Of a stretch of 56,700 nucleotides of DNA, positions 55,854 to 55,885 are shown piece after piece. Below the pieces are notes generated by a model. The model was not told where the DNA came from. It searched no databases and saw nothing but the letters and a program-made list of their open reading frames with translations. Within the stretch, counting starts at the first letter, position 1. Each line of letters starts with the position of its first letter. The DNA is from an uncultured virus (IMG/VR IMGVR_UViG_3300017917_004074) (Duplodnaviria; Heunggongvirae; Uroviricota; Caudoviricetes). The stretch lies in IMG/VR virus record IMGVR_UViG_3300017917_004074; one strand, 5' to 3'. The translations under genes and the position numbers were made by a program.

Positions 55854-55885
55854 CTTAGGATTCCGTAACTATAACGGCCCTAAGG
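55854..55885 (+). other. 23S rRNA helix-69-like sequence in a hairpin, in the capsid gene 3' UTR
   Basis: CCGTAACTATAACGGCCCTAAGG (55863-55885) vs bacterial 23S CCGTAACTATAACGGTCCTAAGG (recalled from memory, 22/23); enclosed by a CTTAGG/CCTAAG stem. Confidence 0.7.

What the first reader, a model, noticed from the sequence alone, without database searches (positions are those of the whole stretch)
55854..55885. 23S rRNA helix 69 copy (22/23 nt) between the capsid stop codon and its terminator
Seen: + strand CCGTAACTATAACGGCCCTAAGG inside the hairpin CTTAGG-ATT-CCGT-AACTATA-ACGG-C-CCTAAG. Established: 23S rRNA H69 and its 3' flank read CCGUAACUAUAACGGUCCUAAGG. H69 forms bridge B2a, contacts A/P-site tRNAs, release factors and RRF, and the same sequence lies in the I-CeuI homing site. 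The capsid mRNA, likely one of the most abundant late transcripts, would carry the reverse complement (anti-H69), while a + strand RNA would be an H69 mimic. Inference: possible roles are a ribosome-targeting antisense or decoy RNA, a binding site for an H69-recognising protein, or a homing/recombination target. Its occurrence in a genome with apparent systematic +1 recoding is intriguing, but no link is shown.
Basis: partly seen in the sequence, partly recalled or inferred. Interest (0 to 1): 0.75.

Follow-up and report, generated by a model that had tools for sequence, protein, structure and literature searches.

The report
Conserved anti-H69 hairpin after phage capsid gene
Just after the major capsid gene of an uncultured jumbo phage lies a small, strongly conserved RNA hairpin whose fixed letters are the exact complement of helix 69 of the bacterial large-subunit ribosomal RNA, so the phage may bind ribosomal subunits by base pairing, though no binding has been measured.

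Summary
Window + strand 55863-55885 matches E. coli 23S rRNA 1908-1930 at 22 of 23 bases. It lies in a hairpin between the capsid stop codon and an intrinsic terminator.

The capsid mRNA (- strand) therefore carries the complement of helix 69 (H69). This is a selected element, neither chance nor an rDNA chimera:
- 90 of 91 distinct downstream sequences from 198 related capsid loci carry CCUUAGG, a 2-4 nt spacer, then GUUAUAGUUAC. The 3' arm co-varies.
- The most invariant letters (UAUAGUU) are the complement of the 7-nt H69 loop.
- The same motif, in the same orientation, follows an unrelated capsid family.
- It also sits in a roughly 80-130 nt structured RNA inside phage tRNA arrays, where 159 of 159 tRNAs are co-oriented with it.
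- It is present once per genome in every motif-bearing record counted.
- No Rfam family matches, cultured relatives lack it, and no shared phage RNA-binding protein was found.

Best reading, inferred and not shown: an antisense RNA that pairs, loop to loop first, with H69 of free or immature 50S subunits. The rivals are a protein-binding hairpin, a sponge for an H69-like RNA, and a DNA-level site. The + strand "H69 mimic" reading is disfavoured.

This scan noted the same idea earlier on another genome (e1-7850842). No RNA-seq or binding data were obtainable.

The parts
55893..56700 (-). 3' part of the major capsid protein gene. It runs off the window; the full protein is 353 aa in the near-identical record G001/L001.
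   Evidence: ORF list. Full ORF at L001:647-1708. phrog_3922 major head protein, E 3.2e-26. 37-45% identity to major capsid proteins of the Bacillus jumbo phages 0305phi8-36, KLEB27-3, vB_BceM_WH1 and Edson and of Moorella phage MTATph1.
55890..55895 (-). Two in-frame stop codons (TAA TAA) that end the capsid ORF.
   Evidence: Read directly (L001 row).
55854..55885 (-). The conserved hairpin in the capsid mRNA 3'UTR: C-CUUAGG-G-CCGU-[UAUAGUU]-ACGG-AAU-CCUAAG.
   Evidence: Sequence. RNA fold with 11 + 7-nt loop + 4 + 2-nt bulge + 7. Present in 90 of 91 distinct downstream sequences of relatives. Each 3' arm fits its own 5' arm better than arms swapped between sequences: 14.9 against 12.4, with 0 of 500 shuffles as high. 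Compensatory pairs are tabulated.
55863..55885 (-). The 23-nt tract complementary to 23S rRNA 1908-1930. The only non-Watson-Crick position is a G opposite U1923, which is a wobble.
   Evidence: Alignment to E. coli rrlH: 22 of 23 identical on the + strand. The identical 24-nt 23S stretch occurs in a cyanobacterial genome.
55867..55873 (-). The 7-nt loop UAUAGUU, the exact complement of the H69 loop (1912-1918).
   Evidence: Fold. These seven positions are the most invariant in relatives: 57, 53, 57, 57, 55, 57 and 57 of 57 distinct variants.
55814..55845 (-). Intrinsic terminator of the capsid transcript: a 9-bp G+C-rich stem, a GAAA loop, then UAUCUUUUUG.
   Evidence: Terminator scan finds 1 site; shuffles average 0.3. 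Fold. An equivalent hairpin follows the element in relatives.
55794..55803 (-). GTTACTAATT motif after the terminator. GTTACTA is conserved at this place in relatives. It may be a -10-like promoter element for the next gene. Its membership of the element is uncertain.
   Evidence: Seen in nearly all rows. In the window there are 3 matches against 1.14 expected, which is not significant. The promoter scan found no sigma-70 consensus here.
54991..55761 (-). Next gene downstream (256 aa, no family found). It is separated from the capsid gene by the element and the terminator.
   Evidence: ORF list. No PHROG and no Pfam hit.

Best explanation
The element is a conserved RNA hairpin carried on the 3' end of the major capsid mRNA. 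Its 5' arm and loop present a 21-23-nt sequence complementary to 23S rRNA 1908/1910-1930. That tract covers the H69 loop, its 3' strand and the linker that follows.

Most likely it works as an antisense RNA against the large ribosomal subunit. The 7-nt loop UAUAGUU would first kiss the 7-nt loop of H69, which is exposed only on free or immature 50S subunits. Pairing could then spread along the 5' arm. On the capsid mRNA the arm is melted each time a ribosome terminates, because it starts 0-9 nt after the stop codon in most relatives.

The result would be capture of 50S subunits or pre-50S particles. That capture could tether them at the most heavily translated late message, or keep them from joining 30S subunits. 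Some phages deliver the same module as a free small RNA cut out of a tRNA array, which argues for action in trans.

Shown: the sequence, its position, its conservation, the co-varying stem, the complementarity, and one copy per genome in the motif-bearing records counted.

Inferred: that complementarity to 23S is what selection preserves.

Speculative: kissing with H69 and its consequence for the ribosome.
For: 1. Match to 23S. 22 of 23 bases match 23S 1908-1930 with no flank similarity, about 6e-4 expected by chance (own arithmetic).

2. Family 1 (the window's capsid type). 198 loci gave 91 distinct downstream sequences, and 90 of them carry the motif. The one failure is a locus that begins inside the element.

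3. What is conserved is the 23S-complementary half. Across 57 distinct variants of both families, loop positions 3-9 are 53-57 of 57 invariant. The leading CC of the 5' arm is conserved (48 of 49 at position 2) yet forms a Watson-Crick pair inside the hairpin in only 16-19 of 52 sequences. The 3' arm varies freely and compensates: 5' arm position 7 is 49 G-C and 3 A-U; spacer position 1 is 24 G-C, 20 A-U, 1 C-G and 1 U-A; spacer position 2 is 23 U-A, 13 C-G and 7 A-U.

4. Unrelated lineages share it.
   - A second capsid family (phrog_1623; BLASTP against the window's capsid E 0.34) carries the motif after its stop codon in 22 of 39 distinct sequences (44 of 75 loci).
   - It also follows an RNR alpha gene (L118/L191).
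   - It also follows a terminase gene (L146).

5. Family 2 polymorphisms. All 7 polymorphic positions in the 21-nt tract lie opposite a G or U of 23S, so both alleles still pair. The chance of 7 of 7 among 10 tolerant sites of 21 is 0.001.

6. Stand-alone form. 39 viral loci hold the motif in a structured RNA inside tRNA arrays. 159 of 159 tRNAs are co-oriented with the anti-H69 reading. 11 of the 12 pairs of the closing stem show compensatory changes. The predicted inner hairpin is AUGU-[UAUAGUU]-ACAU.

7. Copy number. One copy each in 4 of 4 jumbo genomes of 202-268 kb (after the capsid gene), and in 5 of 5 tRNA-array-type records (in the array).

8. No shared phage partner protein. Only 5 of 434 ORFs of G011 have BLASTP hits in both other lineages. 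They are ThyX, class II RNR, DnaE, RecA and a tail-like protein. The common partner is therefore probably host-encoded and highly conserved.

9. Energetics. The net predicted gain from forming the duplex with 23S 1898-1938, after unfolding both hairpins, averages -14.1 kcal/mol over 66 variants and is -23.5 for the window. Other 23S 41-mers give -0.4 to -1.7.

10. Accessibility. A PNA oligomer aimed at H69 inhibits E. coli growth (Kulik et al. 2017, as described in review PMC7038079; passage read).

11. Strand. G.U 14 against A.C 3 in the core stem in the mRNA sense.
Against: - There are no expression, binding or phenotype data.
- In 70S ribosomes H69 is buried in bridge B2a. In E. coli the central loop base 1915 carries an N3-methyl-pseudouridine that blocks Watson-Crick pairing. 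Both points are recalled knowledge. Mature, used subunits would therefore be poor targets.
- In family 1 the duplex is often interrupted. Of 49 distinct variants, 12 have a spacer of 2 or 4 nt. Only 9 of the 37 with a 3-nt spacer pair at 21 of 21 positions; 10 pair at 20, 14 at 19 and 4 at 18.
- Family 1 loop substitutions are not enriched for wobble-compatible changes: 7 compatible variants, 6 incompatible transitions and 4 transversions.
- A strand test over whole helices was inconclusive: G.U 24 against A.C 25; sense strand more stable in 37, antisense in 27, equal in 2 of 66; Wilcoxon p 0.12.
- Cultured relatives lack the element (Bacillus, Moorella and Streptomyces phages). So do two family-2 records that are 80-82% complete. 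It is therefore dispensable for these capsid types.
- A phage needs ribosomes late in infection, so the benefit of binding 50S is unclear.
- The family 2 test was devised after seeing the data, and the sequences are related.
Confidence: 0.5

Rival explanations
1. It is a sequence-specific protein-binding or processing hairpin, and the likeness to 23S is incidental. Examples would be an mRNA-stabilising 3' structure, a site for a nuclease, or an antitermination or termination-control factor acting on the adjacent terminator.
For: The architecture is a hairpin with an invariant loop directly upstream of an intrinsic terminator. This resembles protein-recognised hairpins such as phage lambda boxB (recalled). 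Family 1 loop substitutions show no preference for wobble-compatible changes. Spacer indels and mismatches break a continuous duplex in many variants.
Against: The 18 conserved letters in two blocks would have to coincide by chance with one of the most conserved rRNA segments; I estimate roughly 1e-6 (own arithmetic). Three phage lineages carrying the motif share no candidate RNA-binding protein. The motif also occurs in a free RNA in tRNA arrays that has no terminator to control. The conserved leading CC is not explained by the hairpin.
Confidence: 0.22
2. The antisense tract targets a separate H69-like RNA and not the ribosome. A candidate is the H69-sense module found in tRNA arrays of some bacteria. 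Equally, that bacterial RNA could be a decoy that soaks up the phage RNA.
For: Eight bacterial loci carry an invariant 26-nt 23S-like sense sequence inside tRNA arrays, co-oriented with the tRNAs. They come from five cyanobacteria, Saprospiraceae, Verrucomicrobia and Polyangiales. In two loci it lies next to a sub-threshold YrlA-like match. Its variant letters (GAC in place of GGU at 1921-1923) are the exact complement of the GUC spacer seen in several phage variants.
Against: The bacterial element is rare: 1 of 101 cyanobacterial genomes sampled, and that one was the query genome itself. Hosts of these phages are unknown. Most phage spacers are not GUC. No co-occurrence is shown. The orientation of the bacterial RNA rests on neighbouring genes and a few covarying helices.
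Confidence: 0.1
3. It is a DNA-level site shared with rDNA, such as a homing-endonuclease or recombination target, so its orientation relative to the gene would not matter.
For: This stretch of 23S rDNA is a classic homing-endonuclease target (recalled). The rDNA-like sequence occurs in both orientations relative to neighbouring genes when phage and bacterial loci are compared.
Against: The spacer next to the would-be cleavage region varies in length in 12 of 57 variants. The rDNA flank beyond 1930 is not conserved after capsid genes. The co-varying 3' arm indicates an RNA stem. No relative among 198 family-1 loci has an insertion at the site. No endonuclease domain was found among the window's 43 proteins.
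Confidence: 0.05
4. The functional molecule is a + strand transcript that mimics H69. It would act as a decoy for an H69-binding factor.
For: In the window itself the inner hairpin CCGU-loop-ACGG is Watson-Crick on both strands. Whole-helix wobble counts did not separate the strands.
Against: No promoter-like site faces that way, and the terminator works only for the - strand. The core stem has G.U 14 against A.C 3 in the capsid sense. In the window the seventh outer pair is G.U only on the - strand. In most relatives the H69 stem is not preserved; only the loop plus one arm is. The phage tRNA-array copies are all transcribed in the anti-H69 sense if read with the tRNAs.
Confidence: 0.03

Closest known systems
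TURBS (termination upstream ribosome-binding site) of caliciviruses and influenza B segment 7
   Same: It is a viral mRNA motif next to a capsid or matrix stop codon. It is complementary to ribosomal RNA and is held to tether a ribosomal subunit after termination. Sources: abstracts and listings of PMC3035654, PMC2793014 and PMC11921876.
   Different: TURBS lies upstream of the stop codon, pairs with small-subunit 18S rRNA, and serves reinitiation on an overlapping ORF. Here the motif is downstream of the stop codon, complements large-subunit 23S H69, is followed by a terminator, and has no restart ORF. It also exists as a free RNA.
Shine-Dalgarno / anti-Shine-Dalgarno pairing (recalled)
   Same: It is direct mRNA-rRNA base pairing used by phages and bacteria.
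   Different: It involves 4-9 nt at the 16S 3' end, upstream of start codons. Here 18-23 nt complement an internal functional helix of 23S, in a 3'UTR.
Synthetic antisense PNA against H69 (Kulik et al. 2017, described in PMC7038079; passage read)
   Same: It has the same target helix. It shows that H69 can be reached by a complementary oligomer in cells and that this harms growth.
   Different: It is man-made and short, with no hairpin or kissing loop. The phage element would be a natural RNA counterpart.
Loop-loop 'kissing' antisense RNAs of plasmids, and sRNAs derived from mRNA 3' ends (recalled)
   Same: The complementary letters sit in a hairpin loop, a terminator follows directly, and there is one copy per replicon.
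   Different: Known targets are mRNAs or primer RNAs of the same or the host genome, never rRNA. Processing and chaperone dependence could not be tested here.
Bacterial and phage Y RNAs (YrlA) (PMC4201824; passages read)
   Same: The tRNA-array form is a small RNA closed by a long terminal stem and encoded among tRNA-like genes in phages. Y RNAs act through modules that mimic or bind other RNAs.
   Different: The phage form has no Rfam YrlA match. No Ro60/TROVE gene was found in 0 of 5 genomes searched. Its module is antisense to rRNA and is not tRNA-like.

Membership tests
Any Rfam 15 family | A covariance-model match at the gathering score, or at least E of 1 or below | tested here: not met
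   0 matches in the window at gathering score. At E of 1 or below over L001, L145, L118, L104, L097, L101 and L158, the only hits overlapping the element are chance-level ones (mir-2756 at 23.7 bits, BSnc120 at 22.1 bits).
Intrinsic (Rho-independent) terminator | A G+C-rich stem-loop followed at once by a U tract | tested here: not met
   The scan reports only the downstream hairpin at 55845-55824. The element is followed by GAAGGGAUCAGGGG and not by a U run.
TURBS-type reinitiation signal | Lies upstream of a stop codon that overlaps or abuts a restart codon | tested here: not met
   The element begins 7 nt after the first stop codon. The next ORF starts at 55761, beyond a terminator.
TURBS-type reinitiation signal | Complementary to small-subunit rRNA | tested here: not met
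   The complementarity is to 23S 1908-1930.
Kissing-loop antisense RNA / 3'-end-derived sRNA | The complementary sequence is displayed in a hairpin loop | tested here: met
   The 7-nt loop UAUAGUU is predicted in the window and in the tRNA-array RNA consensus.
Kissing-loop antisense RNA / 3'-end-derived sRNA | Demonstrated pairing with its target and release as a stable RNA | not testable with these tools
   No RNA-seq was available for this window. There are no binding data.
Y RNA (YrlA) / Ro60 system (for the tRNA-array form) | A YrlA covariance-model match and a neighbouring Ro60 (TROVE) gene | tested here: not met
   No YrlA hit in L097, L101 or L158. TROVE was found in 0 of 5 phage genomes, while the control genomes Deinococcus and Bacteroides were positive.
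rDNA homing-endonuclease target site | A contiguous rDNA-like site of fixed length, with an endonuclease gene or intron in some alleles | tested here: not met
   Spacer length is 2, 3 or 4 nt in 5, 45 and 7 of 57 variants. No insertion occurs in 198 loci. No endonuclease domain was found in the window's 43 proteins. The extent of the known endonuclease site is recalled and was not checked.
Captured rRNA gene fragment / assembly chimera | Similarity continues into the flanking rRNA sequence, or is confined to one assembly | tested here: not met
   Flanks are unrelated to 23S. The element is present in 198 independent contigs of family 1.

The most novel reading that the evidence does not exclude
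Phages of several unrelated lineages carry a dedicated anti-H69 RNA, riding on the capsid message or released from a tRNA array. It would seize or disable host large ribosomal subunits by kissing the H69 loop, acting as a natural antisense 'ribosome drug' or tether. The H69-like sense RNAs found in tRNA arrays of some bacteria would then be decoys in the same conflict.
Probability: 0.2. Interest if true: 0.92.

Novelty: new variant of a known kind. Interest (0 to 1): 0.8.

Why it matters
If the pairing is real, this would be the first natural RNA known to target a functional centre of the large-subunit rRNA by antisense, and a new way for phages to handle host ribosomes.

It would give a natural precedent for H69-directed antisense antibacterials.

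It would add a function to the poorly understood non-tRNA genes in phage tRNA arrays.

H69 is nearly universal. The same 24 nt occur in E. coli and in a cyanobacterium. The idea is therefore directly testable with E. coli ribosomes and a 40-nt synthetic RNA, without culturing the phage.

Even if the ribosome link fails, this is a widespread unannotated RNA motif: hundreds of contigs, two capsid families, and tRNA arrays.

Tried and rejected
- **Covariance model.** Model R1, built from 11 same-geometry hairpins, aligned the other variants poorly. Only 66.4% of cells were paired, and sliding the partner by +1 gave 73.9%. I did not use it. Instead I compared each 5' arm with its own and with swapped 3' arms and tabulated partners position by position.
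- **Whole-helix strand tests.** Wobble counts and folding energies were inconclusive. An earlier energy comparison was confounded by the G-run of the terminator and by duplicated rows.
- **Wobble-compatibility of substitutions.** Not significant in family 1; positive only in family 2.
- **Other copies or a complementary partner in the window.** None beyond chance: 4 matches at 1 or fewer mismatches against 1.24 expected, and only the element itself is exact.
- **Cultured phages.**
  - DNA search with the window's capsid region found no match.
  - A 46-nt element query hit only rRNA-containing records, one unannotated site in a Paenibacillus phage record, and three shorter weak hits.
  - Four cultured capsid relatives lack the element.
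- **RNA evidence.** Transcription, strand and 3' ends therefore remain untested.
- **Ro60/Y RNA link for the tRNA-array form.** No TROVE gene in 0 of 5 genomes.
- **Shared phage-encoded partner protein.** None found among ORFs of 50 aa or more at BLASTP E of 1e-5 or below. Small or fast-evolving proteins could have been missed.
- **Earlier notes of this scan.** Look-ups by place and by sequence returned nothing.
- **Literature.**
  - 'complementary to 23S' + bacteriophage + mRNA returned 0 papers.
  - 'helix 69' + antisense + 23S returned 36 papers. The 15 listed concern PNA oligomers, rRNA modification and other topics unrelated to phages.
  - 'helix 69' + bacteriophage + base-pair + mRNA returned 9 papers, none on such an element by title or abstract.
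  - H69 + phage + 'noncoding RNA' returned 15 papers, and none of the 10 listed is relevant.
  - I saw listings and abstracts only, except for the passages named elsewhere in this report.
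Full report
**1.

The + strand reads CTTAGG-ATT-CCGT-AACTATA-ACGG-C-CCTAAG-G at 55854-55885. The 23-mer at 55863-55885 occurs once in the window. None of 100 dinucleotide-preserving shuffles gave a match, even with three mismatches allowed.

I fetched E. coli K-12 rrlH through the annotated-genome tool, using an accession recalled from memory. The alignment shows 22 of 23 identical bases. 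From the record's coordinates these are 23S 1908-1930. The one difference is at 1923, and there is no similarity on either side.

A comparison of the whole window with the rrnH operon shows that exact runs of 13-16 nt are ordinary: there is a 16-nt run at 34036-34051, and random windows reach 13-16. The signal is therefore the 22/23 match. I estimate about 6e-4 such matches by chance (own arithmetic).

**2. Surroundings**

Genes in the window run almost entirely on the - strand.

- The ORF ending at 55893 is the major capsid protein. It is 353 aa in the near-identical record G001 and matches phrog_3922.
- It is 37-45% identical to the capsid proteins of the Bacillus jumbo phages 0305phi8-36, KLEB27-3, vB_BceM_WH1 and Edson and of Moorella phage MTATph1.
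- Related contigs reach 202-268 kb.
- The capsid ORF ends in TAA TAA.
- Seven bases after the first stop codon the hairpin begins.
- A terminator follows at 55845-55824 with a U tract.
- The next gene starts at 55761.

Folded as - strand RNA, the stretch gives CUUAGGG-CCGU-[UAUAGUU]-ACGG-AA-UCCUAAG and then the terminator (MFE -37.8 kcal/mol, z -4.79). The capsid mRNA therefore carries the complement of H69. The only non-Watson-Crick position against E. coli 23S is a G opposite U1923.

**3. It is conserved, and the conservation is lopsided**

A capsid-based search of viral contigs found 552 relatives, of which 80 were kept. A second search from a divergent member kept another 80. Together with pattern hits, 198 loci contain the capsid 3' end and at least 60 nt downstream. 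They give 91 distinct 70-nt sequences. Ninety of these carry CCTTAGG (2 or fewer changes), a 1-6 nt spacer, and GTTATAGTTAC (2 or fewer changes). The exception is a locus that starts inside the element. The element starts 0-9 nt after the stop codon in 78 of 90, with a maximum of 24 nt.

Conservation of the two blocks:
- Over the 57 distinct variants of both capsid families, loop-block positions 3-9 are 57, 53, 57, 57, 55, 57 and 57 of 57.
- The flanking positions are 52 and 55 on one side, 54 and 50 on the other.
- By my mapping, positions 3-9 are the complement of the 7-nt H69 loop (1912-1918).

Evidence for the stem:
- The 3' arm changes freely but pairs with its own 5' arm better than arms swapped between sequences: mean score 14.9 against 12.4, with 0 of 500 shuffles as high.
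- Position by position, in 52 sequences with the 3-nt register, there are compensatory pair types at five positions. Spacer position 1, for example, is G-C 24, A-U 20, C-G 1 and U-A 1.
- The leading CC is conserved yet Watson-Crick-paired inside the hairpin in only 16-19 of 52. The hairpin does not explain its conservation. Complementarity to G1929-G1930 would.

**4. Which strand**

A neutral whole-helix count did not decide (G.U 24 against A.C 25). In the core stem, G.U outnumbers A.C 14 to 3 in the capsid sense. With the position between stop codon and terminator, and the tRNA-array evidence in section 5, the capsid-sense (anti-H69) RNA is the structured one.

**5. The motif is wider than this capsid family**

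It nevertheless showed the same stop-element-terminator layout in three other settings:
- after a capsid gene of another family (phrog_1623; BLASTP against the window's capsid E 0.34; about 54% identical to Streptomyces phage capsids);
- after an RNR alpha gene (L118/L191);
- after a terminase gene (L146).

In the second capsid family, 22 of 39 distinct downstream sequences (44 of 75 loci) carry the element. These are all members at 92% or more identity to L145, plus two at 82-83%. The 17 without it have only a terminator.

In that family every polymorphic position of the 21-nt tract (7 of 7) lies opposite a G or U of 23S, so both alleles still pair. Given 10 such positions among 21, the chance is 0.001. 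This test was devised after seeing the data and the sequences are related, so it is suggestive only. Family 1 shows no such bias. Only 9 of its 37 variants with a 3-nt spacer are complementary at 21 of 21 positions, and 12 of 49 have spacer indels.

**6. A free-standing form**

An exact 19-nt version of the motif is found in 39 viral loci, and all of them lie in tRNA arrays. All 159 tRNAs detected are co-oriented with the anti-H69 reading.

- The RNA between the flanking tRNAs is about 80-130 nt long.
- It is closed by a 12-bp stem in which 11 of 12 pairs show compensatory changes.
- The consensus fold presents AUGU-[UAUAGUU]-ACAU, the same 7-nt loop on a 4-bp stem as in the window.
- These phages (78-112 kb, two complete with terminal repeats) have the second family's capsid type at 48-53% identity. 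They carry one motif copy, in the array and not after the capsid gene.
- Four jumbo genomes of the window's type carry one copy each, after the capsid gene.
- Three records of the L145 type have one copy after the capsid gene. Two others, 80-82% complete, have none.

An RNA that is excised with tRNAs argues for action in trans, and against a role limited to the capsid message.

**7. What could the common partner be**

Only 5 of 434 ORFs of G011 have BLASTP hits both in the tRNA-array type and in a jumbo genome. They are ThyX, class II RNR, DnaE, RecA and a tail-like protein. None of five genomes has a Ro60/TROVE gene. No Rfam family matches.

A partner common to three lineages that share almost nothing is most simply a host molecule that hardly varies. 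The only candidate the sequence itself points to is 23S H69. The same 24 nt are found in E. coli and in a cyanobacterium.

Predicted energetics allow pairing. After paying to unfold both hairpins, duplex formation with 23S 1898-1938 gains on average 14.1 kcal/mol over 66 variants, and 23.5 for the window. Other 23S pieces give 0.4-1.7. That calculation ignores the ribosome's structure and its modifications.

A review I read in part reports that a PNA oligomer against H69 inhibits E. coli growth (PMC7038079, citing Kulik et al. 2017). The helix can therefore be reached in cells.

**8. Mechanism I commit to, and its weak points**

Most likely the loop kisses the H69 loop of free or immature 50S subunits, and pairing can extend along the 5' arm. 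On the capsid mRNA a terminating ribosome melts that arm just as the 50S subunit is released. The outcome would be capture of 50S, either as a tether or as a block to subunit joining. I give the whole chain about 0.5. The first link, that the element is selected for complementarity to 23S, is more probable than that. The consequence for the ribosome is much less so.

Weak points:
- H69 is buried in 70S ribosomes, and in E. coli its central base is N3-methylated (both recalled).
- Many family-1 variants cannot form an uninterrupted duplex.
- Cultured relatives lack the element.
- The benefit to a phage that needs ribosomes is unclear.
- No RNA or binding data exist.

Rivals are a protein-recognised hairpin (0.22), a sponge or target relation with an H69-like RNA (0.10), a DNA-level site (0.05), and a + strand mimic (0.03).

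**9. A related oddity in bacteria**

A pattern chosen to exclude true 23S found 12 genome contigs.

- Eight carry an invariant 26-nt 23S-like sequence that differs from true 23S only at 1922-1923. They come from five cyanobacteria, a Saprospiraceae, a Verrucomicrobia and a Polyangiales.
- The sequence lies inside tRNA arrays, with the tRNAs on the strand that reads it as H69 sense.
- In two loci it lies next to a sub-threshold YrlA-like match (35 bits against a threshold of 69).
- Covarying helices favour the sense strand weakly.
- It is rare: 1 of 101 sampled cyanobacterial genomes, and that one is the query genome itself.
- A ninth contig (Smithella MAG) has the phage-type anti-sense form.

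Whether these are decoys, targets or unrelated is open.

**10. Comparison with what is known, and novelty**

The nearest analogue in logic is the TURBS of caliciviruses and influenza B, but every defining feature tested differs: subunit, side of the stop codon, and restart ORF. It is not a terminator, not a known Rfam family, not a Y RNA by the tests available, and not a captured rDNA piece.

My literature searches (listings and abstracts only) found no description of a phage RNA complementary to H69. That covers only the held open-access library.

I tested the claim independently here. I also added the second capsid family, the tRNA-array RNA, the single-copy pattern, the absence of a shared partner protein, and the bacterial sense element.

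I rate the finding as a new variant of a known kind, namely viral RNA-rRNA complementarity or antisense RNA. It would be a large step from that kind if the ribosome link is proven.

Noticed in passing
L372-L410 (viral contigs), e.g. L373:380-504: An unannotated structured RNA of about 80-130 nt lies inside phage tRNA arrays. It has a 12-bp covarying closing stem (11 of 12 pairs with compensatory changes) and an inner AUGU-[UAUAGUU]-ACAU hairpin carrying the same anti-H69 motif. All 159 neighbouring tRNAs are co-oriented with it. In some loci it is the first gene after a TATAAT-like box.
   Followed up: partly
L363-L365 and L367-L371 (bacterial genome contigs), motif near position 1500 of each locus: An invariant 26-nt 23S-like sense sequence (H69 loop plus its 3' flank, differing from true 23S at 1922-1923) lies within a conserved RNA of about 200 nt in tRNA arrays. 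The hosts are five cyanobacteria, a Saprospiraceae, a Verrucomicrobia and a Polyangiales genome. In L364 and L365 it sits next to a sub-threshold YrlA-like match. It was found in 1 of 101 sampled cyanobacterial genomes.
   Followed up: partly
L118:1289-1400, L191, L146:1490-1560, L104:1490-1600: The same motif, with a 23S-like ACC or ACT spacer, occurs in other viral contigs. It follows an RNR alpha gene and a terminase large-subunit gene, and it sits in an intergenic spot of a 186-kb contig. After the RNR gene and in L104 it is followed by a terminator. After the RNR gene it forms its own CCGU/ACGG hairpin without the outer CUUAGG/CCUAAG stem.
   Followed up: partly
window 32843-39693: Seven neighbouring genes encode 2OG-Fe(II) oxygenase-domain proteins: six on the - strand and one on the + strand at 39055-39693, which is below Pfam's cut-off. 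They are interleaved with a glutathione peroxidase (36597-37211) and a DUF6065 protein (37503-38201).
   Followed up: no
window 55794-55803 and 16100-16109 (- strand); after the terminator in most related loci: A GTTACTA(A/G/T)T motif is conserved just downstream of the capsid terminator in relatives. It recurs about 57 nt upstream of the ORF that starts at 16043. It may be a phage promoter element. In the window there are 3 matches against 1.14 expected, which is not significant.
   Followed up: partly
window 34036-34051: This is a 16-nt exact match to E. coli 23S rRNA, inside a 2OG-Fe(II) oxygenase gene. Random windows reach 13-16 nt, so it is probably chance.
   Followed up: yes
window 45416-49108 (- strand): A 1231-aa protein has a weak partial Alba-domain match (residues 599-635, E 5e-6, 26.6 bits, just over the cut-off). 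No other family was found.
   Followed up: no
window 40638-41530 and 49108-49879: These two stretches of 0.8-0.9 kb hold no ORF of 100 aa or more on the coding strand.
   Followed up: no
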